A DNA stretch of 27,479 bases from a virus, in the UHGV virus genome UHGV-0150478. One strand, 5' to 3'. Shown in pieces: positions 7,144 to 25,799 of the stretch (the stretch's first letter is position 1; each line of letters begins with the position of its first letter). The notes under the pieces were generated by a model that saw nothing but the letters and a program-made list of their open reading frames with translations, searched no databases and was not told the DNA's origin. Both the position numbers and the translations under genes were made by a program.

Positions 7144-7198
7144 TTTAAAATCCCTCGGCGTTCGCGCTGTGCGGGTTCAAGTCCCGCTCCGGGTACCA
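7144..7198 (+). other. att core: 3' fragment of tRNA-Leu(UAA) (anticodon loop to CCA); no 5' half present
   Basis: Sequence TTTAAAATCCCTCGGCGTTCGCGCTGTGCGGGTTCAAGTCCCGCTCCGGGTACCA: anticodon TAA, long variable arm, T-arm GGGTTCAAGTCCCGC, acceptor 3' strand plus CCA. Upstream bases cannot form the 5' acceptor strand. Matches my recollection of enterobacterial leuZ 3' end. Confidence 0.8.
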
Positions 7199-7241
7199 TG
7201 GGAAAGATAAGAATAAAATCAAAGCAATAAGCAGTGTCGTG

Positions 7242-7266
7242 AAACCACCTTCGGGTGGTTTTTTTG
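7242..7266 (+). terminator. Intrinsic terminator downstream of the tRNA fragment
   Basis: 8-bp stem AAACCACC/GGTGGTTT with TTCG tetraloop (7242-7261) followed by T-run to 7265. Confidence 0.6.
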
Positions 7267-7357
7267 TATCTTCTTTTTCATTTCCGAAGATGCGTCCGAA
7301 GATGATTTTTCTCTGGACGCATCATCATTCATTTTCTCTGGCCACCAACTACGGGCA

Positions 7358-7612
7358 CTACTTTAACTTTTCGGTCATATGCTGCTGTCTGTCGTGGGTT
7401 CTTATGCCCGGAAATTGCTTGCTTCTCTTCCAGGCTGCCTTAGGCGTAATCAGTTCTGGTGGGGGGAATGCCGATTTCTCCCGCGTGACCTTAATGTTTT
7501 CTGGCAGGTGTAGCCCAAGTTCGCAGCGGCTCCGTGCTTCAATAATGCCATTGGTACCATCGGCAAGTACCAGGTGAACCGCGTCACCACGCTTTAATGT
7601 GAGTTTAAGCAT
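7358..7612 (-). CDS. Hypothetical small protein (84 aa); weak CsrA-like N-terminus
   Basis: N-terminus MLKLTLKRGDAVHLVL...KVTREK loosely resembles the CsrA pattern; start codon overlaps stop of upstream ORF by 1 nt (TAATG). Confidence 0.35.
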   Translation of the reverse strand: MLKLTLKRGDAVHLVLADGTNGIIEARSRCELGLHLPENIKVTREKSAFPPPELITPKAAWKRSKQFPGIRTHDRQQHMTEKLK

Positions 7613-7968
7613 TAGCGTACCCTCAGCGAACGTTCGCCGCGTTCCAGATGTGCGCCTGGTACCGGGTTAAGTAATTCGGCAGGTGGTGTTTCTCCACGCG
7701 CCATTATTTCTGCGGCAACCGCCTCCGCAGATTCAATCACTTCTTTAATGGCTCGCTTGTTTGGTGTAATAACCGTTTCTACTTCAACAAGTGACACGCC
7801 TTCATACTCGTCCGGGATCTTATCTTTGCTATCGATAATTACCCGGATAGCCCCCTGTGCATCAGTAAATGTGTTTTTAGCAGTTTTCAATTTACGATGA
7901 ATATTCTTTATCGCCTTTGGCTTCTGCTGCTTTTCGGTGTACATCCACTTCGCGGGCGATGAGGCCAA
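7612..7968 (-). CDS. Hypothetical protein (start uncertain)
   Basis: ORF overlaps the upstream ORF 7892..8341 by 77 nt in another frame; true start may be downstream, or the two ORFs may be one frameshifted gene. Confidence 0.3.
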   Translation of the reverse strand: MASSPAKWMYTEKQQKPKAIKNIHRKLKTAKNTFTDAQGAIRVIIDSKDKIPDEYEGVSLVEVETVITPNKRAIKEVIESAEAVAAEIMARGETPPAELLNPVPGAHLERGERSLRVR

Positions 7969-8341
7969 ATACCTTGTTTACTTCGTTGGTGGTTACCGCG
8001 GCGGCCAGCGTATTGGCAACGTTGATCAGCTTCTCATCCAGTTCCTTACGAAGACGGGTAGCATCTTCCGCATTCTCGCTGGCATTCTTGATATCAAACT
8101 CAGCTTTATTCCTCTGGCGGTATTCCGGATTGTCGTACAGGCCCATGAAAATATCGGCGCTGAATCCGAGAGGGGATAGCGCTTTCTTAACAGCATCCGT
8201 CCAGGATTTCTTCGGCGCTTCGCCGTCGCTTGTTGGTCCATGTCTAGTATCGTAGATGTACGGAGTGCAACCGTAAGCCGCAGACTCGCCGCGCACCCCA
8301 TTCAATATGTACCAGACTCTCACTTTCATGGTGTGGTGCAT
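7892..8341 (-). CDS. Putative single-strand annealing recombinase remnant (Erf/Bet-like motif), possibly 5'-truncated
   Basis: Segment KKALSPLGFSADIFMGLYDNPEY resembles the conserved motif I recall in phage SSAPs (Bet ARLAFGFAGIYDKDE; Erf ARKYCLNGLFGIDD). N-terminal 20 aa look non-protein-like and abut a likely deletion junction. Confidence 0.3.
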   Translation of the reverse strand: MHHTMKVRVWYILNGVRGESAAYGCTPYIYDTRHGPTSDGEAPKKSWTDAVKKALSPLGFSADIFMGLYDNPEYRQRNKAEFDIKNASENAEDATRLRKELDEKLINVANTLAAAVTTNEVNKVFGLIAREVDVHRKAAEAKGDKEYSS

Positions 8342-8783
8342 TTCACATAGGTACAGCGTGGCTGAGATTCAGTTAGTAATTCGTTGGGTTATTGCGACAT
8401 GGCGCCGTCGTAGCGGAAGCGTTCCGAAACCTGCGAACATTTGCCGCGTAAACCGGTTTGACGGATACCTGGCTGACGCTGAGACGTGGGCCACTGCTGA
8501 GGCTGCCGTTGACCCTGCTGAAGTTGTGAAGGGCTACAACGAGATTCTGGGCGACCTGCTACCTATAGCTGAAATTGATACTGACCGCCGTCGGGCAATC
8601 CTGCGCCTGCTGGCACATATGCGCACGCAAACTCTTGGCGCATTTATCGGCTACTTCGAAAAATTCCGCGATAACGCCCCAGACTTCTATTTCGGCGGCG
8701 AATATCGCACCGGCTGGCGGGCAGGGTTTGATTACCTGATGAAGCCAGAAACACTGCGTAAAACCAGGGAAGGGGCATTATGA
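8307..8783 (+). CDS. Replication initiator (lambda O-like) C-terminal region; probably 5'-truncated
   Basis: Stop overlaps the start of the DnaB-like helicase gene (ATGA), the position of O-type initiators; first ~50 codons (W/C/R-rich) look like non-coding sequence read in frame. Confidence 0.4.
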   Translation: MYQTLTFMVWCISHRYSVAEIQLVIRWVIATWRRRSGSVPKPANICRVNRFDGYLADAETWATAEAAVDPAEVVKGYNEILGDLLPIAEIDTDRRRAILRLLAHMRTQTLGAFIGYFEKFRDNAPDFYFGGEYRTGWRAGFDYLMKPETLRKTREGAL

Positions 8784-10171
8784 ATCCAGAAGAACTGGAA
8801 GCGATCGTTCTCGCTGGTCTGATTAACGGTGGCGCGACGCCTGACGCGTTTGATGTGATTGCCACTACTCCGGAGGAAGCCTTCAGCATCGTGTTTCACC
8901 GTCGCGCTTTCAGCGAAATCAAAAAGCAGGCACTGGCGAACGGCATGATCGACATGTTGTTTATCAGCGAAGCGCTGGGCGGTTCCAGCCTTGCGGATCT
9001 GTCTCAAATATCCCGGATCCCGGCAACGGTACCGAATCTGAAAGGCTATGCCGGGAAAATGGTGCGGGCATGGCGGAGCCGCAAAATGGCGGCATTGTTG
9101 CAATCTGGCGCGGATGGTATCCGTAACGCTGTAAACCAGAGTCAGCGTGATGAGGTTATTGAATCTCATGTTGCTCAGGTGCTGGATATGAGCGCCGCTA
9201 CCGGCACAGTCCAGCCGGTACACATCAAAGAGCTGTTACCGCTCTACATTGACACCGTTGATAAACGGATGTCTGGCGACGCGCAGGAAATGATGCTGAA
9301 AACCGGAGTCGAGGATCTGGATGTCGCCCTGGGCGGTATCAACATGACCGACCTTGTTGTGGTTGCCGGTCGTCCAGGCATGGGGAAAACGGAATTTACC
9401 CTGAAGATTATCGATGGCGTTACCGCAGATGGCGGCGGCGCACTGTTTTTCAGCATGGAAATGGGCGCTCAGCAGATTGTTGAACGTACCGTTGCCGGGG
9501 CTGGGAATATGTCCACGTCGCGTCTGCGTAATCCAAAAGAAATGGACGATGAGGATTTGACCAGATTAACCGCCGCGCTTGCAATCATGCAGGATCGCGA
9601 TATCTGGATTGTTGATGCCACTGATTTGACGATTGAGCAGATCCGCGCCATTGCAGAGACTCATAAACGCCGTTATCCGCACCTGAAGTTGATTGGTGTT
9701 GATTACATGGGCCTGATCAAAAAACCGAAGGCCGAGCGCCACGATCTCGCTGTCGGGCATATCTCCCGCAACATGAAGACTATGGCCATGCGTCTGCATA
9801 CCCCTGTTTTTGCTCTTAGCCAGCTTTCCCGCCAGGTGGATTCTCGACCTGCTGGCCAGCGTCGCCCGGTGATGTCGGACCTGCGCGATTCCGGCAGTGT
9901 TGAGCAGGACGCTGACAGCATTTTGTTTTTGTACCGCGATGAAGTTTACACACCTGATTCACCTGCAAAGGGTATCGCCGAGGTGATTATCGGTAAAAAC
10001 CGTTCTGGCGGGGCAGGTGAAATTATTTATCAGGAATTCCGGAATGGGCATTTCCTGCCAGTTGATCAACACGTAGCACGCGAAAAATTACGCATCCAGA
10101 AGGAGGCAGAGCAACCGAGAAAACGTGAAAAACGGTATTCAAACAAAAACTTTAATACGGACCCATTTTAA
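8780..10171 (+). CDS. Replicative DNA helicase, DnaB family (phage P/gene-12-like)
   Basis: 463 aa; Walker A GRPGMGKTEF, DnaB-type motifs DADSILFLYRDEVY and IIGKNRSGGAGEI; N-terminal DnaB-like domain. Confidence 0.9.
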   Translation: MNPEELEAIVLAGLINGGATPDAFDVIATTPEEAFSIVFHRRAFSEIKKQALANGMIDMLFISEALGGSSLADLSQISRIPATVPNLKGYAGKMVRAWRSRKMAALLQSGADGIRNAVNQSQRDEVIESHVAQVLDMSAATGTVQPVHIKELLPLYIDTVDKRMSGDAQEMMLKTGVEDLDVALGGINMTDLVVVAGRPGMGKTEFTLKIIDGVTADGGGALFFSMEMGAQQIVERTVAGAGNMSTSRLRNPKEMDDEDLTRLTAALAIMQDRDIWIVDATDLTIEQIRAIAETHKRRYPHLKLIGVDYMGLIKKPKAERHDLAVGHISRNMKTMAMRLHTPVFALSQLSRQVDSRPAGQRRPVMSDLRDSGSVEQDADSILFLYRDEVYTPDSPAKGIAEVIIGKNRSGGAGEIIYQEFRNGHFLPVDQHVAREKLRIQKEAEQPRKREKRYSNKNFNTDPF

Positions 10172-10209
10172 CCACGCATGACCAGCGTGAAATAACCGAG
10201 GAAAGACCA

Positions 10210-10620
10210 ATGACCACCATTTCAGGCAAATTAGAGTACCCGTCGGACAAAGGACACATAGACGACGGTAAAAACTATCTCGACGTCATTTTGTGGAATA
10301 TGAACGCCGGGCCACGTGCGCGCACTCGTGCGGTTTTTGTACCAAGACCCAAAGCAGGCAATTTTTCAACACCAGCTCAGCCTGCCCGTCAGGCATCCGT
10401 AGCCGCAGCGCCAGCAGTGAAATGTAAGGGTAAAACGCACATCGGGATCGCGATTCGCAGAAATGGTGAGCGGCAAGTGAAACTCCACGAAACAGCGACA
10501 ACCTGGTGTGCCTCACCGCATGAAACTTACGACAAGATAACCGGACAGCGCATTGGCGCGCCCGGTCGCTGTCGCCTGCTGCTGAGTTCCATCACTCCGA
10601 TAGCAAAGAAAGGGACGTGA
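10210..10620 (+). CDS. Hypothetical protein (136 aa)
   Basis: ORF tightly followed by the next gene (2-nt gap); Arg/Pro-rich middle section lowers confidence. Confidence 0.35.
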   Translation: MTTISGKLEYPSDKGHIDDGKNYLDVILWNMNAGPRARTRAVFVPRPKAGNFSTPAQPARQASVAAAPAVKCKGKTHIGIAIRRNGERQVKLHETATTWCASPHETYDKITGQRIGAPGRCRLLLSSITPIAKKGT

Positions 10621-10621
10621 T

Positions 10622-10858
10622 ATGGCAGGGCAATCAGATTACCTGCCGCCCGGCTTACCACACAACCGCGCCAAATGGCCTCAGGAATACCTGCTTAAAG
10701 AGCACTACGACATGCGAGCGGCGACGCTGATCCGCCAACTCTTTGAGAAACGTATTCCGAGGGGAAGCGTGATTGAGCAAATCGGAATGACGCCGGATAC
10801 GTACCGGGAATTTTTCAGAGAGCGTCTGAACTACTGGAGAGGGGGGATGGAGCAATGA
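10622..10858 (+). CDS. Hypothetical protein (78 aa)
   Basis: ORF with ATGA overlap to the downstream gene. Confidence 0.45.
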   Translation: MAGQSDYLPPGLPHNRAKWPQEYLLKEHYDMRAATLIRQLFEKRIPRGSVIEQIGMTPDTYREFFRERLNYWRGGMEQ

Positions 10859-11166
10859 AATACAAACGGTGGGTGCGTGCGGAAGTCGTAATCATCAAAC
10901 AATGTGCGGGCAGCATGATAGTTGAACGTATAGGGCAGCTTATTGGAAGAACCGGTGCTGCGGTACGCACAAAAGCGCGCGAGTTGAAAATCTGTATGTA
11001 TCTGCGGGGTAATTATCACCAGTCAGTGAAATACCGCCAGGAGGATATCGAGCTGGCAAGGGAATTACATCAGTCGGGTATTAATCGCCAGGATATCGCG
11101 GAAAAACTCGAAATGTCGATCGGTGCGGTGAATCAGTATGTTTATTTTGAGCGGAGGATTTCATGA
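10855..11166 (+). CDS. Putative DNA-binding protein with two HTH-like segments (candidate regulator)
   Basis: Segments MIVERIGQLIGRTGAAVRTKAREL and GINRQDIAEKLEMSIGAVNQYV both look like helix-turn-helix units (sigma-70 region 4 / LuxR-like). Confidence 0.4.
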   Translation: MKYKRWVRAEVVIIKQCAGSMIVERIGQLIGRTGAAVRTKARELKICMYLRGNYHQSVKYRQEDIELARELHQSGINRQDIAEKLEMSIGAVNQYVYFERRIS

Positions 11167-11387
11167 AAGAACTTTTTCTGGCATTTGTGCCCCGGTTTAT
11201 TAATGACCAGATCGCACTGACTGATAATGGTGAACAATATGAAATTGCCTGCAGCATGGTGGATGTGAATCCTGGCGAACGGTATGACGCGATGTGTGAC
11301 CTGAAAATATTTACCTGGCTGGGTTGGGCTATTCCGTGTGGAGAACCAACCAATATTCGCCCATTTGAGAGCAGGGAGGCTGTATGA
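11163..11387 (+). CDS. Hypothetical protein (74 aa)
   Basis: ORF with ATGA overlap to the upstream gene. Confidence 0.4.
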   Translation: MKELFLAFVPRFINDQIALTDNGEQYEIACSMVDVNPGERYDAMCDLKIFTWLGWAIPCGEPTNIRPFESREAV

Positions 11388-11742
11388 GTGAGTTGAAAAT
11401 ACGTCGCAAGGCAATAGCACACGTTAAAAATCCATTACCAGTGCCCGCCGAATGCCATTTTTGTGGTGGGAATGTACGGATTGGTACGTATGTATGGTGA
11501 TTGCGGAGTGACGTAAAACGAATCGTTGTGGGTGTAATATCGTCAATATCATTGGTTTCCCGGAGGGAAAGGACATGTTTGGCGATAAACTGGAGTTACC
11601 ACGGAACGGGCGGATAGTGCTCTATATTTCAGATTACAAAGTAACCAGGGCTGAGGTGTTGGAACCGGAAAAACATCTGGTCACGTTACCGGACATTATT
11701 GAGTTGTATAAGCGGGTCGGATAACGGCTGGGGAGGTAACTG

Positions 11743-13050
11743 ATGCCGTGGAACAATTTTCCGCACCTCGCCGCCAGGGCGTTCAATCAACCGCTTTTGC
11801 TGGAGCCCACCTACGCGCGGGTATTTTTTTCGGCGCTGAGCGACCGGTTCGGTACCGGGCGACTGATTGATACAGCGTCTGGAGAGGTAATGAACAGCGA
11901 CGAAATGAACGCGCTCGCGATGGGGTGGGACAGCAGCGAGCGAACACGCCAGAAATCGTATCGCGTGGAGCGTGGTATAGCCGTTCTGCCGGTTACCGGG
12001 ACGCTGGTTCATAAATTGGGTTATATCAACCCAGTTAGCGGGATGAGCGGTTACGACGGAATCGCAAAACGCCTGCAGCAGGCGATTTCTGATCCCGATG
12101 TAAGAGGGGTCCTGCTTGATATTGACTCCCCTGGCGGTGAAGTCGCCGGCGCGTTTGATACTGCTGATTTAATCGCCCGGGCGCGAGAGCAAAAACCTGT
12201 GTGGGCGCTGGCCAGCGATACGGCCTGCAGCGCTGCCTATTTGCTGGCGTCAGCGTGTTCGCGCCGGCTGATAACGCAGACAGGCACAGTTGGTTCAATC
12301 GGTGTCCTGATGGCTCACCGCTGCGTCGAAAAAGCGCTGGAGATTGCTGGCGTCGACGTGACGCTGATTTACGCCGGCGCGCACAAAGTTGACGGGAACC
12401 CGTATTCCCAGCTGCCAGGCGACGTTCGCGACGAATTCCAGCTGAGTATTAACAGCACGCGCGAGCAGTTCGCGCAAAAAGTCTCGGATTATACCGGGCT
12501 GAAAAAATCCAGGGTGCTGGCCACGGAAGCTGCAGTATTTATCGGCGCGGACGCGATTAAATCTGGTCTCGCTGATCAACTCGTTAATTACGCGGACGCT
12601 ATCGCAGTGATGGCCGACGCACTGAAACCAAAAATGGAGCGCTTTATGTCTGGTACAGAAACCACGGCGGAGACCACGACCACAGAACAAACCGCGACCA
12701 CGACTACTGTCGCGCAGGTTGAGTTTAACACGGAGCAGATTCGCGCGGACGCCGCATCAAGCGAACTGGCGCGTGTGATGGCCATCATCAATTGTCCCGA
12801 AGCTGTTGGGCGCGAGGCGCAGGCAAAAGCGCTCGCTGGCGTCCCCGGGATGACGGTCGGGCAGGCGCAGGTAGTCCTCGCTGCAGCACCTAAAACGGCG
12901 CAGGCGCGGACAGAAACGGCGCTCGATACACTAATGAGCACTGAATCACCAGCGACTATTCAGGATGCTGGCAGTACTACGGCAACAGGAACAACCGCAA
13001 ACGTCTCGATGCTGGTTGCTGCAGGGCGTTCAATTTTAGGGGATGAATAA
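11743..13050 (+). CDS. Prohead protease / scaffold, S49 (SppA/ClpP-like) family, lambda gpC-like
   Basis: 435 aa; peptidase core with serine motif TACSAAYLLASA and GSIGVLMAH; Thr/Ala-rich C-terminal region consistent with a fused scaffold (Nu3-like) domain. Confidence 0.8.
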   Translation: MPWNNFPHLAARAFNQPLLLEPTYARVFFSALSDRFGTGRLIDTASGEVMNSDEMNALAMGWDSSERTRQKSYRVERGIAVLPVTGTLVHKLGYINPVSGMSGYDGIAKRLQQAISDPDVRGVLLDIDSPGGEVAGAFDTADLIARAREQKPVWALASDTACSAAYLLASACSRRLITQTGTVGSIGVLMAHRCVEKALEIAGVDVTLIYAGAHKVDGNPYSQLPGDVRDEFQLSINSTREQFAQKVSDYTGLKKSRVLATEAAVFIGADAIKSGLADQLVNYADAIAVMADALKPKMERFMSGTETTAETTTTEQTATTTTVAQVEFNTEQIRADAASSELARVMAIINCPEAVGREAQAKALAGVPGMTVGQAQVVLAAAPKTAQARTETALDTLMSTESPATIQDAGSTTATGTTANVSMLVAAGRSILGDE

Positions 13051-13379
13051 TGACTACAGAAACGTATAGCCCGGACGATTTTATTCTTGGGCCTGACCTT
13101 GTTGTCACGACCGTCGGTCATTTTCAGGGCGGGATCAACGTACCCCGGCTGACACCGATTATGCTCAACGCTACTGTCGGGACGTTTAAGGTTTGGGACG
13201 GCTCAGTCGGTAAAGCTATTGGCCTCACTGCCACCGCAGTTAATACTGGCTCCAGTTCTGCAGACTGCTCGTACTATAAATCAGGCTCGTTCCGTTACAC
13301 GGCGATTAACTGGGGTACGGTTACCGACGTAGCTAAACGCAAATCAGCATTTGTGGGTACGCCGATCAGCGTCGGCTGA
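13050..13379 (+). CDS. Head decoration protein (lambda gpD-like)
   Basis: 109 aa, Gly/Thr-rich, between protease and major capsid gene as in lambda; ATGA overlap with the protease gene. Confidence 0.65.
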   Translation: MTTETYSPDDFILGPDLVVTTVGHFQGGINVPRLTPIMLNATVGTFKVWDGSVGKAIGLTATAVNTGSSSADCSYYKSGSFRYTAINWGTVTDVAKRKSAFVGTPISVG

Positions 13380-13397
13380 TAGCAAAAAACTCAAAAC

Positions 13398-13421
13398 AAG
13401 CCGCCTCCGGGCGGTTTTTTT
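13398..13421 (+). terminator. Intrinsic terminator/attenuator between decoration and major capsid genes
   Basis: Stem CCGCC/GGCGG (13401-13414) with TCCG loop, flanked by A-run and followed by T7. Confidence 0.45.
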
Positions 13422-13437
13422 ATAACAGGATATATAA

Positions 13438-14472
13438 ATGAGCGATTCGTTTACTACGTCAGAACTGATTACCGCGACACAGCAGGTATTTAAGTTCAAT
13501 CCGTTGTTTTTAAAGCTGTTTTTCCGTGAGACCTACACGTTTACGAGCGAAGAGGTTTTTCTGGATAAAATCCCGGGAAAAGTGAACATGGCCGTGTACT
13601 GCGCGCCGATGATCACCGGCAAAGTTGACCGCACTCGCGGCTATTCAACGAACCATTTCAAACCGGGTTACACGAAACCCAAGCACACGATCAATCCGAA
13701 TATGAGCATCAAGCGCGCAGCCGGTGAGCAGATTGGCCAGCCGGAAACGCCGGTCGAACGTCGTGCAAAAATCATCATGCAGAACCTGCTTGATGAGGAA
13801 CTGAGCATCAGCCAGCTCGAAGAGTTCCAGGCGGTACAGGCTGTTCTGTACGGTAAATACACTGTTTCCGGCAGCAATATCGAGACATATGAGATCGACA
13901 TGAGCCGCAGCGCGACGAATAACGTCACTCAGTCCGGTTCGACAGCCTGGTCGACTCAGGACGCGGAAACGTATGACCCGAGCGACGATATTGAATCCTA
14001 CGCGGACCTCGCCTCCGGTGCGGTTAACGTGATCATCATGGATGGTAAAGCCTGGAAGCAGTTGAAGCGTTTTAAAAAATTCTGGACGGCACTGGATACG
14101 CGCCGTGGCTCAAACAGCCAGCTCGAGGTCGCGCTGAAAAACCTGGGCGACGTTGTCAGCTTTAAAGGCTACTACGGCGACACTGCGCTGTTTGTCTACA
14201 AAGGGCAATACCTCGACCCGGTAACAGATACTGAAACGCGTTATATGCCGGATAACACGATGATCCTTGGCAACACAAAAAACCGCGGGCTCCGCACTTA
14301 TGGCGCAATTCAGGACGAAGACGCGCTGAAAGAGGGTATTTCCGAAGCGACGCGCTATCCAAAAGTCTGGACCACTACCGGTGATCCGGCAGTGACGCAA
14401 ACAATGACGCAATCCGCGCCAGCAATGGTCCTCACGGACGCCGACGCGTTCGTTGTCGTAAAAATCGCGTAA
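13438..14472 (+). CDS. Major capsid protein (lambda gpE-like)
   Basis: 344 aa; size, position after the gpD-like gene and overall sequence character match the lambda E family. Confidence 0.8.
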   Translation: MSDSFTTSELITATQQVFKFNPLFLKLFFRETYTFTSEEVFLDKIPGKVNMAVYCAPMITGKVDRTRGYSTNHFKPGYTKPKHTINPNMSIKRAAGEQIGQPETPVERRAKIIMQNLLDEELSISQLEEFQAVQAVLYGKYTVSGSNIETYEIDMSRSATNNVTQSGSTAWSTQDAETYDPSDDIESYADLASGAVNVIIMDGKAWKQLKRFKKFWTALDTRRGSNSQLEVALKNLGDVVSFKGYYGDTALFVYKGQYLDPVTDTETRYMPDNTMILGNTKNRGLRTYGAIQDEDALKEGISEATRYPKVWTTTGDPAVTQTMTQSAPAMVLTDADAFVVVKIA

Positions 14473-14474
14473 GA

Positions 14475-14496
14475 GTCGAAAGGCTCTTTTTTGTTA
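14475..14496 (+). terminator. Intrinsic terminator after major capsid gene
   Basis: Stem AGAGTC/GGCTCT (one G-U pair) with GAAA tetraloop, followed by T6. Confidence 0.45.
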
Positions 14497-14506
14497 AGGA
14501 ATCAAC

Positions 14507-14926
14507 ATGAGCACAAAAACAGAATTGCTGGCGCGTATTGACGATATGAGCGCTCAGCTCGGTCGCGAATTACCGCGCAGCGGGACTATTGCGGAACTGG
14601 AATCAATCGTTGCCGGCGCTGAGTCAGAGCTCGATATTCTGAACGAGCAATCCGGTGACGCGGGAGGCATCGAGATTACAGTGAATACTGCGTCCGGGAC
14701 CGATAATGAACTCGCTCAATCAATCGCGAGCGCTATCGTTTCACAGTCACAAGAGCAGGAGCTCGCACCGGCTACGCGCCGCGTCAAGTTGCGTAACACG
14801 CTGGACGTTTATCACTACGTGAACGGGCGTCGCGTTCGCGAGATTGTTGCCGCAGGCCGTGAAATTGTTGTTGATTCACCGGAGGTCGCAGACCTTATCG
14901 CAGCTGATCACGTTTACGCTCTATGA
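14507..14926 (+). CDS. DNA-packaging protein FI-like
   Basis: N-terminus MSTKTELLARIDDMSAQLGRELPRSGTIAELESIVAGAESEL parallels recalled lambda gpFI N-terminus (MTKDELIARLRSLGEQLNRDVSLTGTKEELALRVAELKEEL). Confidence 0.55.
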   Translation: MSTKTELLARIDDMSAQLGRELPRSGTIAELESIVAGAESELDILNEQSGDAGGIEITVNTASGTDNELAQSIASAIVSQSQEQELAPATRRVKLRNTLDVYHYVNGRRVREIVAAGREIVVDSPEVADLIAADHVYAL

Positions 14927-15303
14927 GCTACTACGATGACCTCCGGGCCGGCGACGAGGAGATGATCCGTGAGTGGGGACGGCCCGTTAAATTACGCGGT
15001 AAAACCGACCCCATTATCGCTATTTTCAACGAGCCTTACGCGCGCGTTGACGTTCCTCACGCTGGTTTTATTACCGGTACAGTAACGAGCCTGACGGCGT
15101 TCTCGGACGACGTCGCTGGCGTTGTTGCGCGTGACGTCGTCCAGGTTCCAAAGCAGCGCAGCATCGAACCTGACGGCTCTGTTACCTGGTCTGGCTGGAC
15201 CGATTACGTGGTTAAAGAGCCTCAACCTGATGGCACAGGGCTCACGAATATTTTTTTAGAGCCTCACACGTCCAGCGAAAACAGCGAGTATTCAAAATAC
15301 TAA
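14923..15303 (+). CDS. Head-tail joining protein (FII-like)
   Basis: 126 aa; positional equivalent of lambda FII directly after the FI-like gene (ATGA overlap). Confidence 0.45.
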   Translation: MSYYDDLRAGDEEMIREWGRPVKLRGKTDPIIAIFNEPYARVDVPHAGFITGTVTSLTAFSDDVAGVVARDVVQVPKQRSIEPDGSVTWSGWTDYVVKEPQPDGTGLTNIFLEPHTSSENSEYSKY

Positions 15304-15334
15304 GTGGGACCTCGGTCCCACTTAAGGGGGAACC

Positions 15335-16015
15335 GTGGCCGATTTACGTAGTAACGCGCAGATGTTCGATATCGATGTTTCGGCGCTGGAGCAGCTCAGA
15401 GTCGAAATCAGCGCGACGCAACATCAAATGTTAATGGTATACAACAGGGCGCTGAACCGAACTGCAAAACATATGCACCGAATTTCAGCAGGAATGATTT
15501 TGACTGCACTGGCAGCTAAAAATCATAAGGCCGTAGATAAACGAATCAAGCCGTTCATTAAGCGCCGTAATTTTACAAAAGAAGGGGCAGGAGACCTGAG
15601 CAGCGCCAAGCTCTGGTACGGTCTGAATGATTTCCGGGTATCTGAGCTAAAGGGGCGATTACAAAATCCACGGAGGCAAAAACAGCCTCGCGATCTTGAG
15701 ACCGGCCTGTTTTTGAAAACCAAAAAAGGCGCTAGAGGGGCAACTTTTACACCCAAAAGTGCAGGGCTGGCGATGATGAGTTGGCCCGATTCATTCGTAG
15801 CGAAACGCTACGGTGCGAAAAGTGTCTGGATTCGACTGGATCGCGGAGGAATCGAAGAGGCTCGCGTACCTGTGCACGACGCGCTGGAGGATGCTATCGA
15901 TGATTATATTTTTGAAAACATTGGCCCTGTTTTTATGGGCTTTTTTGAGAAAGATTTGCGCGGTCGCGTGAAAGGTAATGTCCACGTAGACCCAAAAACA
16001 GGTAAACGATTATGA
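15335..16015 (+). CDS. Virion morphogenesis / neck protein, unknown family (GTG start)
   Basis: 226 aa, basic; lies between head-completion and baseplate genes; GTG start preceded by AAGGGGGAA. Confidence 0.4.
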   Translation: MADLRSNAQMFDIDVSALEQLRVEISATQHQMLMVYNRALNRTAKHMHRISAGMILTALAAKNHKAVDKRIKPFIKRRNFTKEGAGDLSSAKLWYGLNDFRVSELKGRLQNPRRQKQPRDLETGLFLKTKKGARGATFTPKSAGLAMMSWPDSFVAKRYGAKSVWIRLDRGGIEEARVPVHDALEDAIDDYIFENIGPVFMGFFEKDLRGRVKGNVHVDPKTGKRL

Positions 16016-16548
16016 GCGGACTGGATGCATTTGACGAATATCTTGATCGCGTTAAAGGCGCGGTTTTACAAATACCGTTCATCAAAACATTCGGAATTTA
16101 TCCGGAAATTCCGGCTGGATTTGAAACGCCAGCTCTGTTCCTGGAAATCAGCAACTGGTCACAGAGTGACGAATCGGTTCCAGGCTCAATTCAGTCAGTC
16201 GAGCTGTCGTGTAATTTGTATTTGCTGCGTGAATTTGCAGCTGATCAGTACGGACTGAAATCGCAGAATGCAGCGCTCTATATGACGAGCTGGATCAATG
16301 GGCGAATGTTCGGTCCCGGAACTAAACCGGCAAAATTCAGCGACGCGGAACCGTGCGACTGGATTAAAAACGGGCAGTCAGTCGGTTCGCATTCAGTTCA
16401 GTGCGTGTCGTTCACGCAGGTTGTAGGCGTTGGTCCAGATATTTTCGATTATCCCTCACAGGGGACCCTGAAAAATATATACGTCGGAATAGCACCAGAT
16501 ATCGGCGCAGAACATGAGGGCGACTATTATGGCCCAATCGGACGATGA
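16012..16548 (+). CDS. Virion structural protein (possible tail completion protein)
   Basis: 178 aa; ATGA overlap with the upstream gene; immediately precedes the baseplate spike gene. Confidence 0.4.
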   Translation: MSGLDAFDEYLDRVKGAVLQIPFIKTFGIYPEIPAGFETPALFLEISNWSQSDESVPGSIQSVELSCNLYLLREFAADQYGLKSQNAALYMTSWINGRMFGPGTKPAKFSDAEPCDWIKNGQSVGSHSVQCVSFTQVVGVGPDIFDYPSQGTLKNIYVGIAPDIGAEHEGDYYGPIGR

Positions 16549-17431
16549 ATATGCTGCAGCGGAGAACGCGCGCAGGCTGCGTGACGCAGTTAAACGCGGC
16601 ACGATAGCTGCAGTTAAAATGAATCCTCCACGCTGCCGAGTCTCATTTGGTGGCGAACACCAGTCAGGCTGGCTGCAGTGGTTTACTCACGCCACCTCAG
16701 AACGCGTCGACTGGAGCGCACCATCAGTGGGCGATCCCGTTACTGTTGTTTCTGAGGGTGGGGATACGCGGAACGGTGTAGTTATGCTCGGGCTGCACAT
16801 TGACGACAAAGCTCCGTCAAGCAATGACCCCCATGATCATGTCACTGCATACTGTGACGGGGCTACGATGACGTATAACACAAAAAATCACACTCTGACA
16901 TGGCAGGGCGTACCGGACGGCGTGGTAAAAATACTCGGTGAGTCTGAAATAGAAATATTTGGACGCGCAGATGTTACTATTAATAGCGAAAATGTAGTTA
17001 ATATCCATGGTGGGAAATTAATTAACGCAGACGCTGATATTATTAATGTCACAGCGACAGATACAATTAACGCACATGCTGATTTAGTGAACGTTATAGC
17101 AACGAGTTCTGTTAGTGTTACTGCTGCGAACAGAATATCGCTGACAGCTCAAACAATCAGCGCGTGGGCTCCGGGTGGTATAACACTAGCTGGTCCAACG
17201 CATATTACCGAGACATTAGTAGTAGATAAATTAGCGACATTCCGTAACGATATTTCTGTCACTGGAGATAACGGTGGAACAGGTAATATCACAACTCGCG
17301 GTAGTGTGTTAGCAGGGCAAGAGGTGCAGGACCGACAAGGCACAATGACTGAGGTCCGCACAACGTACAACGGACACACTCATATATGTCCGGACGGGGA
17401 AACACAACAACCGAACCAACCAATGGCGTAA
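16514..17431 (+). CDS. Baseplate central spike protein (P2 gpV-like); start may be ATG at 16529
   Basis: N-terminal gpV-like domain, then repetitive beta-helix region (NVVNIHGGKLINADADIINVTATDTINAHADLVNVIATSSVSV) and His/Cys-containing tip (GHTHICPDG). Confidence 0.7.
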   Translation: MRATIMAQSDDEYAAAENARRLRDAVKRGTIAAVKMNPPRCRVSFGGEHQSGWLQWFTHATSERVDWSAPSVGDPVTVVSEGGDTRNGVVMLGLHIDDKAPSSNDPHDHVTAYCDGATMTYNTKNHTLTWQGVPDGVVKILGESEIEIFGRADVTINSENVVNIHGGKLINADADIINVTATDTINAHADLVNVIATSSVSVTAANRISLTAQTISAWAPGGITLAGPTHITETLVVDKLATFRNDISVTGDNGGTGNITTRGSVLAGQEVQDRQGTMTEVRTTYNGHTHICPDGETQQPNQPMA

Positions 17432-17433
17432 AT

Positions 17434-17775
17434 ATGCTTGGAATGGACCGTAACACCGGTAAGCCTTTATCGGGGACTGATCACATTTGTCAGTCTATCG
17501 TTGATATTTTAACGACCCCGCTGGGAACCCGTGTAATGTTGCCGGAATACGGCAGCAAATTATTTGACCTCGTTGATAATCCCACTGATCCGTCGCTTGC
17601 TATGAGAATAATAATGGAAAGTGCAGGAGCAATAGCACGCTGGGAACCACGCGTCAGAATTGACAGAATAAATGTGTTAGCAGTGGACATCGGGAAAATA
17701 ACAATATTAATTATCGCAACAGATATCGAAACACAACAGCGATTAGAGTTTAATAATATGGAACTGATATTTTGA
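17434..17775 (+). CDS. Baseplate protein (P2 gpW / gp25-like)
   Basis: From ATG at 17434 (MLGMDRNTGKPLSGTDHICQSIVDILTTPLGTRVMLPEYGS) the protein aligns with recalled P2 gpW; the ORF-track start at 17386 overlaps the spike gene and is less likely. Confidence 0.75.
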   Translation: MLGMDRNTGKPLSGTDHICQSIVDILTTPLGTRVMLPEYGSKLFDLVDNPTDPSLAMRIIMESAGAIARWEPRVRIDRINVLAVDIGKITILIIATDIETQQRLEFNNMELIF

Positions 17776-18692
17776 TAACATCAACAGTTCAGAATTCGAT
17801 AGTGAAAACTATTGATATGAGTCTGCTGCCGCCGCCAGCATTCGTTAAAACCCCATTATTTTCAGATGTTAAATCCAGTCTACTGTCAGAATTGCAGATA
17901 TTATATCCACAATTTAACGCACTCCTGGAGTCAGACCCGGCCGTTAAACTGCTGGAAATAGTTGCATACAGAGAAATCATTATTACAGCTCGGGTAAATC
18001 AGGGGATGCTCGCTGTATTGCTCGCGTTTGCAAAAGGGAGTGACCTCGACCAGATCGGCGCTAATTTTGACTGCCTGCGGCTGTTGATAACGCCAGCTAA
18101 TCCTGACGCAATTCCTCCGACTGAGGGGGTTTACGAGAGTGACGACGAGTATCGTCATCGCATACAGCTATCATGGTACGCGCGGAATACTGCCGGCAGT
18201 ACGAACGCCTATAACTATTTCGCGCTGTCGAGTGATCCCGACGTTCTGTCAGCTCAGGCGTACGGCCCGCCGGTGACCCAGCCTGGATACGTCGATATGT
18301 ATGTTTTGTCGCGAACCGGCGACGGCACTCCGCCTCAATCACTACTGAATACAGTGAATGCGGCCCTGTCTCCTGACGATACTCGACCGCTGACTGATTT
18401 CGTGACTGTAAAACCTGCGTCGAACCTGAATTACCGGGTTGAAGCCGTTATCGTAGCGGGGCTCGGTCCCGATCAGAACGTGTTGCTCAACGGTGCTCAA
18501 AGCGATTTAGCTATATACGTGGCTACACAACATAAAATCGGGGCGACAGCAGCCCTGTCAGGAATTTACGACGCGATACATCGTGACGGAACGGAGCGTG
18601 TGATTCTGATATCGCCAACAGAGGATGTGATTGCTGGCGTCGGACAGGCTCCGTACTGCACAGAAATCAAACTCAGCGTGCAAATGGGGTAG
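17772..18692 (+). CDS. Baseplate assembly protein (P2 gpJ-like); alternative ATG start at 17816
   Basis: Conserved blocks DQIGANFDCLRLLITPANPDAIPPT, YRHRIQ, ALSGIYDAIHRDGTERVIL, YCTEIKL parallel recalled P2 gpJ. Confidence 0.8.
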   Translation: MITSTVQNSIVKTIDMSLLPPPAFVKTPLFSDVKSSLLSELQILYPQFNALLESDPAVKLLEIVAYREIIITARVNQGMLAVLLAFAKGSDLDQIGANFDCLRLLITPANPDAIPPTEGVYESDDEYRHRIQLSWYARNTAGSTNAYNYFALSSDPDVLSAQAYGPPVTQPGYVDMYVLSRTGDGTPPQSLLNTVNAALSPDDTRPLTDFVTVKPASNLNYRVEAVIVAGLGPDQNVLLNGAQSDLAIYVATQHKIGATAALSGIYDAIHRDGTERVILISPTEDVIAGVGQAPYCTEIKLSVQMG

Positions 18693-18694
18693 CC

Positions 18695-19321
18695 ATGACA
18701 AGTCAAAGCGTACTGCCTCCGAACGCAATAACCCCTGAGAGGGCGCTTGAGGTTGTTTTATCTCACGTCGGCGATCTGCCTGGCGATATTCGAATTATTA
18801 AAAATCCCGATTTGTGCCCTGCAAATCTGTTGCCGTGGCTGGCGTGGGAGTACGCGGTCACCTACTGGAACCCCGACTGGAGCGAGCAGCAAAAACGCGA
18901 AATTATTAAGGCCGCAGCCTGGCAAAATAAACATCGCGGCACGCGTGGTGCCGTCGAACGAGCATTATTAACGGTGGGATTTGAGAGCAAAATGAGAGAG
19001 TGGTTTGAAGCCACGCCCAGGGACGACCCGTATACATTCGCAATTAAAATATATCTGCTAAAAAGTATAGGGTTAGATTTAGAACTATTGAATACCTTTA
19101 TTGCACAAATATTTGATGCAAAAAATTGCCGTTCCTTATTAAAAGAAATAAATTTTGAAACGGGTGTCGATGGTGAATTTTTTATAGCTGGTGCGCCTTA
19201 CGCGAAAATAGGCGTAAATATCCCAGCAGACGGCGACGGCGGTGTAAAAATTAACGGCGGGCTATATATATCAGGCTCGCCAATTGTGAGTTTGTTAGTG
19301 GAGATAGGACCTAATGGCTAA
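18695..19321 (+). CDS. Baseplate/tail protein (P2 gpI-like)
   Basis: Block NPDLCPANLLPWLAWEYAV matches recalled P2 gpI (NPDTCPANLLPWLAW). Confidence 0.75.
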   Translation: MTSQSVLPPNAITPERALEVVLSHVGDLPGDIRIIKNPDLCPANLLPWLAWEYAVTYWNPDWSEQQKREIIKAAAWQNKHRGTRGAVERALLTVGFESKMREWFEATPRDDPYTFAIKIYLLKSIGLDLELLNTFIAQIFDAKNCRSLLKEINFETGVDGEFFIAGAPYAKIGVNIPADGDGGVKINGGLYISGSPIVSLLVEIGPNG

Positions 19322-20525
19322 ATTAAAATCAAATCTGAAAGCGAGCGCGAGCCAGGTTTATGCGGTACTGACAGACCGGGGGGCGCAACTTGAAGCCGCT
19401 GCGCTGGCATCGGGTGTACCCGTGGTGCTGAATAAATTCGTTATTGGCGACGCAAACGGAAACGACGACGTAACACCGGACCCGGCACGAACTGCATTAA
19501 TTCACGAGACGTATCGTGGGGATATTAAATCCGCAGAAAATAGCGGTAACCAGGTTATCTTTACACTTTACGTACCGCCAGACACTGGGGGCTATACTAT
19601 CCGTGAGGTGGGGATATTAACAGATAAAGGCGAGCTGTACTCTGTGGCGCGCTCGCCGGACATTTTAAAACCTACGGACAGCAACGGTGCGCTGATTTCA
19701 ATCACGTATAAATACACACTCGCGGTGTCCAGCACATCTACGGTTAATGTTGTAGTATATGACAACTACGTAACTCCCGAGGAAGCTGACAAAAAATATT
19801 TGCAGATAAGTAAAAACTTATCTGAAATTCCCGCAAATGGTGAAACTGCTCAGCAGGCTGCGCGGAAAAATATTGGTATAGATGGGGACGTTGCATATAG
19901 AGATAAGGGTAATGCATTTACTCATCCAAATACTTTTAAAGATGATGTGATTTTTGAAGACGTTTTATCCTCTAAAAAACAAATAAATATAAACAAACCG
20001 GGCACTGATTTGACGTTGTTTTCACTTGCTGGTTTATCAGATGTGTCGGGCGATTATTTAGATTTTTCGACCCGTGGAGAAAACAATCAGAAGGTTTTTT
20101 ATAGATTACGCGGAGTTCACTATGATGGCCTGGTATTACTGTGTGGCGGAATGACGTATAAATACTGGAATGAGGCTAATCTTAAACCGGTTAAAACGAT
20201 TAACGGGGAGTCGCCGGATGAAAATGGCAACATAGATATAAGTCTTTCACCGGACCCATCACCGGAAATAGGTGTTGTTGGCGCGGTTAATACTTATGCG
20301 CTTGTCGCTATTAATCATGCACCACAAATACTACCGGGCTCCATATGGGCTGGAGGTGATTTATATTACGCTAGTATAAATAATACCGGTTCATATAACA
20401 CGGATATTGCCACAAAACCATTTTATGACACACCCCTTGTTGGCTCATGGCGAGCTATGGCGTATTCACCAGGCGGGGTCGGTGATATTGGGACTGCCTG
20501 TTTTTTAGCTATTAGGATTGCGTAA
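19314..20525 (+). CDS. Tail fibre protein (P2 gpH-like N-terminus, divergent C-terminal part)
   Basis: 403 aa; conserved N-terminal fibre-attachment region, then an AT-rich C-terminal portion from about 19780 onward; follows J and I as in P2. Confidence 0.7.
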   Translation: MAKLKSNLKASASQVYAVLTDRGAQLEAAALASGVPVVLNKFVIGDANGNDDVTPDPARTALIHETYRGDIKSAENSGNQVIFTLYVPPDTGGYTIREVGILTDKGELYSVARSPDILKPTDSNGALISITYKYTLAVSSTSTVNVVVYDNYVTPEEADKKYLQISKNLSEIPANGETAQQAARKNIGIDGDVAYRDKGNAFTHPNTFKDDVIFEDVLSSKKQININKPGTDLTLFSLAGLSDVSGDYLDFSTRGENNQKVFYRLRGVHYDGLVLLCGGMTYKYWNEANLKPVKTINGESPDENGNIDISLSPDPSPEIGVVGAVNTYALVAINHAPQILPGSIWAGGDLYYASINNTGSYNTDIATKPFYDTPLVGSWRAMAYSPGGVGDIGTACFLAIRIA

Positions 20526-20815
20526 TGATAAGTGTTGATTCATTTAGAAAAATAACAAACCCTGTTTTTAATGACGAGCATGGGTTATCTATAAATATTA
20601 TTTGCGATATTGACGGGATTGGAAACGACATTCCATTCACCGCAATGAAAAATGATTGCGAGGAACACGGTAGGGTTTTATATGAAAGAGCGCTGAGCGG
20701 GGATTATGGGAGCATTTCTAAATTTGTAAAAAAGAGCAGACGCAAAAACTCCAGACTACATTACGGACTGTTGGCGATCTGTCAATTGAGGCATTCTCAA
20801 TTCAGTGTGCAGTAG
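20525..20815 (+). CDS. Putative tail fibre assembly/chaperone protein, zero-frame product (96 aa); possible -1 frameshift product ends at 20910
   Basis: Positional analogue of P2 G; contains in-register heptamer A_AAA_AAG at 20728-20734; the -1 frame is open from there to a TGA overlapping the sheath start codon. Confidence 0.4.
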   Translation: MISVDSFRKITNPVFNDEHGLSINIICDIDGIGNDIPFTAMKNDCEEHGRVLYERALSGDYGSISKFVKKSRRKNSRLHYGLLAICQLRHSQFSVQ

Positions 20816-20909
20816 ATGCCGGAACCGCATCTGACGCGCAAATCGAAAACTTGGCCGAGCTTAAAGAAGCAATAGCGACGCGAATTGGTGAAAATAGAGA
20901 AGGAATAAA

Positions 20910-22412: not shown

Positions 22413-22429
22413 TAATTCGGAGATTAAAT

Positions 22430-22942: not shown

Positions 22943-22954
22943 AAGGCAAATAAA

Positions 22955-23236: not shown

Positions 23237-23344
23237 TTATTCTGATTCCGTTTATTGCGAAAAAACTTGCCATCCCGCCCGATACGCAAATGGACCTGCC
23301 GTACCGGGTTTTTAATTTCTATGTAAACGAGGTCATGAAAATCG

Positions 23345-25410: not shown

Positions 25411-25571
25411 TAAAAAATCAAACGCTTGCAGAGCACTTAACAAGTATAAAAATAATAAAAAAAACTACGAACATAAATGTAAAACAACCTGATGGTATTT
25501 TTTTTGACGCCGAAATACTAATACCTCTCCGACTACTAAAATTAATTCTCATTATGAAATCCTTTTAATTA

Positions 25572-25796: not shown

Positions 25797-25799
25797 TGA

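What the first reader, a model, noticed from the sequence alone, without database searches (positions are those of the whole stretch)
10172..11742. Head genes start at the protease: terminase, portal, late regulator and lysis genes are missing
The head module is lambda-like (gpC-like protease, gpD-like, gpE-like, FI-like, FII-like), which in lambdoid genomes is always preceded by Nu1-A-W-B (terminase and portal). Here the 1.57 kb between the helicase gene and the protease gene holds only ORFs of 136 aa or less (plus two unlisted peptides of about 38 and 49 aa at 11385-11501 and 11576-11725). No ORF on either strand is long enough for a large terminase or portal, and no holin or endolysin is recognisable anywhere in the window. 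Either the element is a deletion-crippled prophage, or it depends on another element for packaging.
Basis: partly seen in the sequence, partly recalled or inferred. Interest (0 to 1): 0.55.

Follow-up and report, generated by a model that had tools for sequence, protein, structure and literature searches.

The report
Deletion-crippled prophage remnant in E. coli
The head genes start at the protease because one clean 16.5 kb deletion removed the late regulator, lysis, terminase and portal genes from a common E. coli prophage, leaving an ordinary dead remnant.

Summary
Between the DnaB-type helicase gene (8780-10171) and the S49 protease gene (11743-13050) there are only small ORFs of 136 aa or less. 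No terminase, portal, Q, holin or endolysin is detectable anywhere in the window.

Comparison with public E. coli genomes explains why. Window 7144-27479 is a prophage remnant between tRNA-Leu and yecA. It is 99.9% identical to a full-length prophage at the same locus in strain Z0117EC0036. That prophage carries about 16.5 kb at this point, including Q, two holins, an endolysin, TerS, a GpA-type TerL, gpW and a lambda-family portal.

In the window this stretch is cut out at a 4-bp microhomology (GATA, 11720-11723). The cut leaves the last 7 portal codons and truncates a 73-aa ORF to 49 aa. Three further deletions removed the integrase, the immunity region and the replication initiator, and a 1-bp frameshift hits a tail-fibre-assembly-like gene.

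The same lesions occur in 3 of 5,426 complete E. coli genomes, and one of those has a further IS1 hit in the baseplate genes. 443 genomes have the intact portal-protease junction. Window 1-7143 is the end of a separate P2-like prophage in tandem.

Verdict: an ordinary, recently decayed defective prophage. Dependence on a helper is not supported.

The parts
7144..7267 (.). Left attachment-site repeat of the remnant (124 bp). It comprises the 3' 55 nt of tRNA-Leu plus 69 nt that include the tRNA terminator hairpin at 7241-7262. It is also the right boundary of the P2-like prophage in tandem.
   Evidence: An identical second copy lies about 170 bp beyond the window end in GmF046 (L003 38152-38275), next to yecA. 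tRNA-Leu is annotated at L003 17613-17699. Terminator-like hairpin.
7268..8354 (-). Scraps of the left arm: integrase C-terminal remnant (about 7329-7439), Gp157-family remnant (about 7612-7893) and an exonuclease fragment (about 7898-8353). They are joined by deletion junctions at 7440-7441 (TT), 7893-7894 (TA) and 8352-8354 (TAC).
   Evidence: blastn blocks against the full-length prophage L002 and exact junction mapping show about 1.36 kb, 0.37 kb and 5.08 kb missing. RefSeq marks these as partial pseudogenes in three genomes. The 149-aa ORF 7892-8341 matches positions 553-701 of the 728-position exonuclease phrog_2489.
8352..8783 (+). C-terminal fragment of the replication initiator (RepO-like). 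Its N-terminus was lost in the 5.08 kb deletion, which also removed cI, cro and ydaT.
   Evidence: It matches only the C-terminal parts of replication-initiator PHROGs (phrog_428 positions 264-391 of 455). RefSeq calls it 'replication protein RepO, missing N-terminus'. The missing genes are listed.
8780..10171 (+). Intact DnaB-type replicative helicase gene.
   Evidence: Pfam DnaB_C 2e-69 and DnaB N-terminal domain 5.6e-7. 100% amino-acid identity to the full-length relative.
10210..11387 (+). Four small early-right-operon ORFs that also follow the helicase in the intact phage: 136 aa (phrog_5148, unknown), 78 aa (DNA pol III theta-like), 103 aa (HTH regulator) and 74 aa (phrog_2241, unknown).
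   Evidence: PHROGs and Pfam. They are collinear with, and 99-100% identical to, L004 1729-2906.
11575..11724 (+). The 49-aa ORF is the truncated N-terminus of a 73-aa phage ORF. Its TAA stop is created by the deletion junction.
   Evidence: The L004 ORF 3093-3314 (73 aa) shares its first 49 residues. The window ORF matches phrog_340 positions 17-63 of 85. Junction sequence.
11720..11723 (.). Junction of the roughly 16.5 kb deletion: a 4-bp microhomology, GATA.
   Evidence: Left homology to L004 ends at window 11723 (L004 3241). Right homology begins at window 11720 (L004 19773).
11720..11743 (+). Vestige of the portal gene: its last 7 codons and the TGA stop, which overlaps the protease ATG. 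The protease ribosome-binding region (GGAGG) is retained.
   Evidence: tblastn of the L004 portal, residues 518-524, matches window 11720-11740 at 100%. Sequence read.
11743..15303 (+). Intact lambda-like head genes without a portal: S49 protease/scaffold (11743-13050), gpD-like decoration protein (13050-13379), gpE-like major capsid protein (13438-14472), FI (14507-14926) and FII-like (14923-15303).
   Evidence: Pfam and PHROGs. Amino-acid identity to L004 is 99-100%, except for a 66-aa length polymorphism in the protease. The capsid protein is about 57% identical to lambda and N15 gpE.
15335..27429 (+). P2/Mu-type contractile tail module: neck, baseplate V/W/J/I, fibre, sheath, tube, tape-measure-sized protein, U, X and D. 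A terminal lipoprotein gene (27010-27429) follows. All ORFs are intact except 20525-20914.
   Evidence: PHROGs. tblastn against L004 proteins gives 99-100% identity. RefSeq annotation of identical DNA.
20525..20914 (+). Frameshifted tail-fibre-assembly-like gene. One A is lost from an A-run at about 20727, so the 129-aa ORF becomes 96 aa.
   Evidence: Pairwise alignment with L004 28380-28769. The frameshift is shared by L003, L005 and L006. No CDS is listed at this position in the annotated-feature tables of those three genomes.

Best explanation
Window 7144-27479 is a defective (cryptic) prophage in the E. coli chromosome between tRNA-Leu (the pgsA side) and yecA. It descends from a common temperate phage type with a lambdoid early region, a lambda-like head and a P2-like contractile tail.

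One illegitimate-recombination event at a 4-bp microhomology (GATA) deleted about 16.5 kb. That stretch carried accessory genes, the Q antiterminator and late promoter region, two holins, the endolysin, TerS, a GpA-type TerL, gpW and all but the last 7 codons of the portal gene. The end of the early-right operon is therefore fused directly to the protease gene. Three smaller deletions with 2-3 bp microhomologies removed the integrase and excision region, part of the exonuclease, cI/cro/ydaT and the N-terminus of the replication initiator. A 1-bp frameshift disrupts a tail-fibre-assembly-like gene.

Inferred consequences: the element cannot excise, replicate, switch on late genes, lyse the cell, nucleate a portal-containing prohead or package DNA. 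It is inherited vertically as inert DNA. The head and tail ORFs are still intact only because the decay is recent.
For: Shown:
1. Window 8352-11723 and 11720-27479 are collinear with full-length prophage NZ_CP098214.1 at 99.9% identity, but with L004 3242-19772 missing between them.
2. The missing stretch encodes Phage_antiter_Q (Q was tested on the ON470624 copy; the Z0117EC0036 copy is annotated as a pseudogene with an internal stop), two holins, a CHAP endolysin, TerS, GpA_ATPase+GpA_nuclease TerL, gpW and Phage_portal_2.
3. Both deletion edges cut genes. The 73-aa ORF is reduced to 49 aa with a junction-made stop, and 7 terminal portal codons remain.
4. Three further deletion junctions lie at 7440/41, 7893/94 and 8352-54.
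5. There is a frameshift at about 20727.
6. All four junctions and the frameshift are shared by GmF046, CEA601S and AHB18. AHB18 has in addition an IS1B replacing window 16891-17801, which covers baseplate V/W/J.
7. 443 of 5,426 complete E. coli genomes have the intact portal-protease junction, against 3 with the deletion junction.
8. No terminase, portal, holin or endolysin signal appears by Pfam, PHROGs or tblastn anywhere in the window.
9. No + strand sigma-70-like promoter is found in 7000-13500 (none of the single hit in the region is on the + strand; shuffles give 7.1 for both strands). The tRNA-Leu terminator sits at 7241-7262.
Against: - Inactivity is inferred from gene content. No expression or induction data exist here.
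- The promoter scan is a crude consensus scan, so weak or non-sigma-70 promoters could still drive the head and tail genes.
- The 1-bp loss lies in a homopolymer and could in principle be a shared sequencing-technology error, although it appears in the window and in three public assemblies.
- About twenty structural ORFs remain intact. This is equally compatible with recent decay and with retention by selection.
Confidence: 0.95

Rival explanations
1. Helper-dependent element. The remnant keeps head-shell and tail genes and relies on another phage for terminase, portal, lysis and late activation. The helper could be the P2-like prophage in tandem at window 1-7143, or a superinfecting relative of the same family.
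For: A seemingly complete P2-like prophage with its own TerL, TerS, portal, holin and M15 endolysin lies directly upstream in the same arrangement in CEA601S. The window's first 7.1 kb is its int/C/cox/A end. About twenty structural ORFs of the remnant are intact.
Against: - The remnant has no integrase, no immunity or regulatory genes and no complete replication initiator.
- The region next to or within the TerS gene, where lambda-like cos/pac sites lie (established knowledge), is inside the deletion.
- The same remnant exists without any P2-like neighbour in GmF046 and AHB18.
- The P2-type packaging proteins show no detectable sequence similarity to anything left in the window (tblastn), and P2 packages P2 cos DNA into P2 capsids (established knowledge).
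- Known satellites keep integrase, replication and packaging-redirection functions. This element has lost all three.
Confidence: 0.02
2. Domesticated structure. The intact contractile-tail block, with or without the head proteins, is retained by selection as a tailocin-like or other host-beneficial particle.
For: The tail module from neck to gpD is complete and 99-100% identical to that of intact relatives. The deletions removed the functions dangerous to the host: excision, replication, lysis and packaging.
Against: - No lysis cassette and no regulator are left to produce or release particles.
- The tail-fibre-assembly-like gene is frameshifted in all copies.
- In AHB18 an IS1B has destroyed baseplate V/W/J.
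- The form is present in only 3 of 5,426 complete genomes.
- Its near-identity to the full-length relative means too little time has passed for conservation to indicate selection.
Confidence: 0.02
3. Assembly artefact. The helicase-side and protease-side sequences were joined wrongly by collapse of a repeat or a chimeric contig.
For: Prophage regions are prone to misassembly. 495 genomes carry the two halves at separate places.
Against: The identical junction, together with three other junctions and the frameshift, is present in three complete public chromosomes from the USA, France and the UK. The two sides share only 4 bp, so there is no repeat to collapse.
Confidence: 0.01

Closest known systems
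Full-length prophage at tRNA-Leu/yecA in E. coli Z0117EC0036 (NZ_CP098214.1, 2137035-2180284). Partial PHASTER-predicted records of the same family exist as 'Escherichia phage vB_EcoM-705R4' (ON470624) and vB_EcoM-569R10, -720R5 and -783R5.
   Same: It has the same chromosomal site and the same 124-bp att repeat. DNA identity is 99.9% over the helicase, the small ORFs and the head and tail genes, with the same gene order.
   Different: The relative has the integrase, cI/cro, a complete RepO, about 16.5 kb with Q, holins, endolysin, TerS, TerL, gpW and portal, and an unbroken 129-aa tail-fibre-assembly-like gene. The window lacks all of these. The ON4706xx records are software-predicted prophages, not isolated virions.
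Phage lambda / N15 head module (Nu1-A-W-B-C-Nu3-D-E-FI-FII)
   Same: The S49 gpC-type protease, gpD-like decoration protein, gpE-type capsid protein (about 57% amino-acid identity to lambda and N15), FI and FII occur in the same order. The full-length relative has GpA-type TerL, gpW and a lambda-family portal immediately upstream, as in lambda.
   Different: The tail is a P2/Mu-type contractile tail, not a lambda siphovirus tail. In the window the Nu1-A-W-B part is deleted.
Classical defective prophages of E. coli K-12 (DLP12, Rac, Qin, e14, CP4-57). This comparison is from my own knowledge.
   Same: These are chromosomally fixed lambdoid remnants that lost essential modules by deletion or IS insertion and are inherited vertically.
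   Different: Those remnants are old, widespread in the species and partly exapted. This one is confined to 3 of 5,426 complete genomes and is still 99.9% identical to an intact relative, so it is a very recent decay product.
Phage satellites (P4, PICI, capsid-forming PICI). This comparison is from my own knowledge.
   Same: They lack part of the morphogenetic gene set and sit next to tRNA or att sites.
   Different: Satellites keep the integrase, regulators, replication and packaging-redirection functions and lack most structural genes. This element shows the reverse pattern: structural genes kept, all autonomy functions deleted.

Membership tests
Defective (cryptic) prophage derived by deletion | Collinear and near-identical to a full-length prophage occupying the same chromosomal attachment site | tested here: met
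   99.9% identity to NZ_CP098214.1 over all retained blocks. Same tRNA-Leu/yecA site and same 124-bp att repeat.
Defective (cryptic) prophage derived by deletion | Essential phage functions absent, with mapped deletion endpoints that truncate genes | tested here: met
   Four junctions with 2-4 bp microhomology. Remnants of the portal, a 73-aa ORF, RepO, the exonuclease, Gp157 and the integrase.
Defective (cryptic) prophage derived by deletion | Vertical inheritance of the same lesions in related genomes, with further decay | tested here: met
   All junctions and the frameshift are shared by three complete genomes. There is an extra IS1B hit in AHB18.
Defective (cryptic) prophage derived by deletion | Failure to produce infectious particles on induction | not testable with these tools
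   This needs mitomycin C induction, plaque assay or electron microscopy, and sequencing of encapsidated DNA.
   Peptidase_S49 2e-37. HDPD 2e-6 (28.2 bits against a 29.1-bit cut-off, so borderline). Phage_cap_E 1.5e-59. phrog_92 (FI). phrog_82 (head closure).
   Absent from the window. Present at this position in the full-length relative.
Phage satellite (P4-like, PICI, cf-PICI) | Own functional integrase, regulator and replication module | tested here: not met
   The remnant's integrase is reduced to about 111 bp. cI/cro are deleted and RepO is truncated. The intact integrase at 6036-7037 belongs to the neighbouring P2-like prophage.
Phage satellite (P4-like, PICI, cf-PICI) | Packaging signal or packaging-redirection gene (TerS, Ppi, Sid/Psu-like) | tested here: not met
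   No TerS or other packaging protein is found. The TerS region is inside the deletion. The cos/pac sequence itself was not identified.
R-type tailocin | Contractile tail cluster without head genes, with its own regulators and lysis cassette | tested here: not met
   Head genes are present. No holin, endolysin or regulator is found. The fibre-assembly-like gene is frameshifted.

The most novel reading that the evidence does not exclude
The intact block of about 16 kb of head-shell and contractile-tail genes may not be mere debris. It could be kept as a structural-gene reservoir that is expressed in trans or recombined when a related phage infects, or when the adjacent P2-like prophage is induced. 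That could yield chimeric or tailocin-like particles released by the neighbour's lysis genes.
Probability: 0.03. Interest if true: 0.45.

Novelty: already known. Interest (0 to 1): 0.08.

Why it matters
It matters little beyond annotation. The region should be labelled a defective prophage, not a candidate satellite or a novel packaging-independent element. It should not be counted as an inducible phage.

It is a tidy, fully mapped example of early prophage decay. Four microhomology-mediated deletions, one frameshift and, in one strain, one IS1 insertion removed every function needed for autonomy, while the structural genes are still untouched. The same lineage then accepted a P2-like prophage at the regenerated att site.

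Tried and rejected
1. Hidden terminase or portal remnants. Pfam and PHROGs on every ORF of the interval, and tblastn with the relative's and the P2-type packaging and lysis proteins, found nothing except 7 terminal portal codons.
2. Terminase or portal just outside the window. On the right there is only the att repeat and yecA. On the left there is an unrelated P2-like prophage with its own P2-type genes.
3. Misassembly. Rejected because three complete genomes share the junction and only 4 bp are common to the two sides.
4. Satellite or helper dependence. Rejected on gene content and on the absence of the neighbour in two of the three other carriers.
5. Tailocin domestication. Rejected on the missing lysis and regulatory genes, the frameshift and the IS1 hit.
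6. Defence-system content of the small ORFs and the low-GC genes. The PADLOC scan found nothing meaningful.
7. Search for an isolated phage of this family. The only close records in the phage collection are PHASTER predictions.
8. Rfam scan. It found nothing in the interval, only C4 and isrK RNAs in the P2-like neighbour.

Full report
**Observation**

The interval 10172-11742 lies between an intact DnaB-type helicase gene (8780-10171; Pfam DnaB_C 2e-69) and an S49 (lambda gpC-type) protease gene (11743-13050; Peptidase_S49 2e-37). On the + strand it holds ORFs of 136, 78, 103 and 74 aa, plus two short ORFs at 11384-11500 (38 aa) and 11575-11724 (49 aa). The longest - strand ORF is 113 aa.

Downstream come a gpD-like gene (HDPD, borderline at 28.2 bits against a 29.1-bit cut-off), a gpE-type capsid gene (Phage_cap_E 1.5e-59), FI (phrog_92) and an FII-like head-closure gene (phrog_82). 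A complete P2/Mu-type contractile tail module follows.

Pfam and PHROGs searches of the ORFs in the interval on both strands found no terminase, portal, holin or endolysin domain. PHROGs searches of most of the remaining likely genes in the window found none either.

**What is really there**

A megablast search of the phage collection matched only from window 11720 rightwards. In those records, TerS, TerL, a gpW-like gene and the portal lie directly upstream of the protease, preceded by Q, a holin and a peptidoglycan hydrolase. These records are PHASTER-predicted prophages from clinical E. coli, not isolated virions.

Against 5,426 complete E. coli genomes, the stretch 9500-12500 is contiguous in only 3 (AHB18, GmF046, CEA601S; 100% identity). 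In most of the other matching genomes the helicase side and the protease side lie at separate places (495 genomes match in all, median two places per genome). 443 genomes have the intact portal-protease junction of this phage family.

In E. coli Z0117EC0036 the full-length prophage lies between tRNA-Leu (next to pgsA) and yecA. Its gene order is:
- int, a DUF4224 gene, Gp157, a large exonuclease-like gene
- cI-like, cro, ydaT, RepO-like, DnaB, the same four small ORFs
- ORF6N, LprI, GIY-YIG, an IS1, ImmA/IrrE, DUF1367, DUF1364
- Q, two holins, endolysin
- TerS, TerL, gpW, portal
- S49 protease, D, E, FI, FII, tail

Pfam confirms GpA_ATPase+GpA_nuclease (TerL), gpW, Phage_portal_2 (portal), Phage_antiter_Q, two holin families and a CHAP-type lysin (Q was tested on the ON470624 copy).

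**The deletion**

blastn shows window 8352-11723 equals L004 up to position 3241, and window 11720-12554 equals L004 from position 19773, both at 99.9-100% identity. Base-by-base extension places the junction at a 4-bp microhomology, GATA (window 11720-11723). About 16.53 kb is missing.

Both edges cut genes:
- The 49-aa ORF is the first 49 residues of a 73-aa ORF (phrog_340), and its TAA stop is formed by the junction.
- The last 7 codons of the portal gene survive at 11720-11740, directly before the protease start.

tblastn with all 14 deleted gene products, and with the P2-type TerL, portal, TerS, holin, endolysin and LysB, found nothing else in the window (best E = 0.019).

**Further lesions**

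Three more deletions separate the remnant from the full-length form:
- about 1.36 kb at 7440/7441 (TT), removing most of the integrase and the DUF4224 gene
- 0.37 kb at 7893/7894 (TA), within Gp157
- about 5.08 kb at 8352-8354 (TAC), removing most of the exonuclease-like gene, cI, cro, ydaT and the N-terminus of RepO

The 129-aa gene between the tail fibre and the sheath has lost one A from an A-run at about 20727 and is frameshifted. All other retained ORFs are 99-100% identical in protein sequence to the full-length relative. The one exception is a 66-aa length polymorphism in the protease; the window's form has the same length as the protease gene annotated in ON470624.

The four junctions and the frameshift are all present in GmF046, CEA601S and AHB18. 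These differ from the window by only 5-8 substitutions over about 20 kb, so the lesions arose once and are inherited vertically. AHB18 has an additional IS1B that replaces window 16891-17801 and destroys baseplate V/W/J. Decay is therefore continuing.

**Boundaries and neighbour**

Window 7144-7267 is a 124-bp att repeat (the 3' 55 nt of tRNA-Leu plus its terminator). The second copy lies about 170 bp beyond the window end, followed by yecA.

Window 1-7143 is not part of this element. It is the early end of a P2-like prophage in tandem, with the gpA N-terminus, a Cox-like gene, an Arc-like gene, a repressor-like HTH gene, two low-GC cargo genes and an integrase. CEA601S carries a 98.3%-identical copy in the same arrangement, and there it has its own P2-type TerL, portal, TerS, holin and M15 endolysin. 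GmF046 and AHB18 carry the remnant without this neighbour.

**How it most likely works**

It most likely does not work at all.

Shown: loss of int, the immunity genes, the initiator N-terminus, Q, the lysis genes, the terminase, gpW and the portal.

Inferred from established lambda biology:
- Late genes need Q acting at the late promoter, and both are gone.
- Proheads nucleate on the portal, and DNA enters through it.
- cos/pac lies beside or within the small terminase gene, which is inside the deletion.

A simple scan finds no + strand sigma-70-like promoter between the att site and the head genes, and the tRNA terminator blocks read-in from the left. This is weak evidence. The element is therefore an inert, vertically inherited remnant. 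The intactness of its head and tail ORFs reflects how recent the deletions are, not demonstrable selection.

**Rivals**

- Helper dependence is contradicted by the loss of every autonomy and packaging function, and by carriers that lack the P2-like neighbour.
- Tailocin-type domestication is contradicted by the missing lysis and regulatory genes, the frameshift, the IS1 hit in AHB18 and the rarity of the form (3 of 5,426 genomes).
- Misassembly is excluded by three complete public chromosomes that share a junction with only 4 bp of common sequence.

**Comparison with what is known, and novelty**

This is a textbook defective prophage, comparable to DLP12, Rac or Qin of E. coli K-12 (my own knowledge) but much younger. 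The same DNA is already in RefSeq, with the left-arm scraps flagged as partial pseudogenes.

The parent phage type combines a lambdoid early region, a lambda-type head and a P2-type tail at tRNA-Leu/yecA, and occurs in about 8% of complete E. coli genomes. In the phage collection searched it has no representative closer than about 58% capsid identity apart from the predicted prophages. That is mildly notable but is not the finding under review.

Interest is low.

Noticed in passing
window 1-7143 (att boundary at 7144-7267): This is the early/integrase end of a separate P2-like prophage integrated in tandem at the same tRNA-Leu att repeat: gpA N-terminus (- strand, about 1-749), a Cox-like gene (4081-4284), an Arc-like gene (4301-4507), an HTH repressor-like gene (4583-4987) and an integrase (6036-7037). 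CEA601S has a 98.3%-identical copy in the same arrangement. GmF046 and AHB18 have none, so it arrived after the remnant formed.
   Followed up: partly
window 1495-1582 and 1618-1692, - strand: Rfam finds a C4 antisense RNA (78.5 bits) and an isrK Hfq-binding sRNA (63.1 bits) side by side inside the P2-like early region, upstream of small ORFs (1208-1438, 746-1135). This resembles a P1 immI / Gifsy isrK-type antirepressor control module sitting in a P2-like prophage. The listed 205-aa ORF 1132-1749 overlaps these RNAs and may be spurious.
   Followed up: no
window 5003-6030: Two low-GC genes (about 39-42% GC against about 50% elsewhere) lie between the P2-like repressor and integrase genes: a 216-aa protein (phrog_5825, weak membrane-protein similarity) and a 115-aa DUF2511 protein. 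They look like moron or cargo genes. PADLOC gave no defence-system hit.
   Followed up: partly
window 12555-12742: A 198-bp (66-aa) length polymorphism in the Thr/Glu/Ala-rich C-terminal (scaffold-like) half of the S49 protease. The window and ON470624 have the 435-aa form; Z0117EC0036 has 369 aa.
   Followed up: partly
window 20525-20914: A 1-bp loss in an A-run frameshifts the 129-aa tail-fibre-assembly-like gene. It is shared by all carriers of the remnant, and no CDS is listed at this position in the annotated-feature tables of those genomes.
   Followed up: yes
L006 (AHB18) 25447-26144, corresponding to window 16891-17801: In one carrier an IS1B element replaces 911 bp of the baseplate V/W/J genes. 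This shows ongoing decay of the remnant's tail module.
   Followed up: yes
L004 19448-19482 (portal gene of the full-length relative; not in the window): A 35-nt stretch of the portal gene matches, at 100%, a region annotated as CRISPR in E. coli O27:H7 B4103-1 (NZ_CP024245.1, 1849246-1849280). This suggests a spacer acquired from this phage family.
   Followed up: no
window 10622-10858: The 78-aa ORF after the helicase is a phage homologue of DNA polymerase III theta (HolE): phrog_1105 2e-27, while Pfam DNA_pol3_theta is below its cut-off. It is conserved in the intact relatives.
   Followed up: no
window 27010-27429: A 139-aa lipoprotein gene (phrog_890) sits at the extreme right end of the prophage, just inside attR. 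It is a typical lysogenic-conversion position and the gene is intact in all copies.
   Followed up: no
whole remnant / phage collection: The parent phage type has a lambda-type head, a P2-type tail and a lambdoid early region. The intact portal-protease junction is present in 443 of 5,426 complete E. coli genomes. In the INPHARED collection its closest non-predicted relatives share only about 57% capsid identity, so it appears to lack a characterised isolate.
   Followed up: partly
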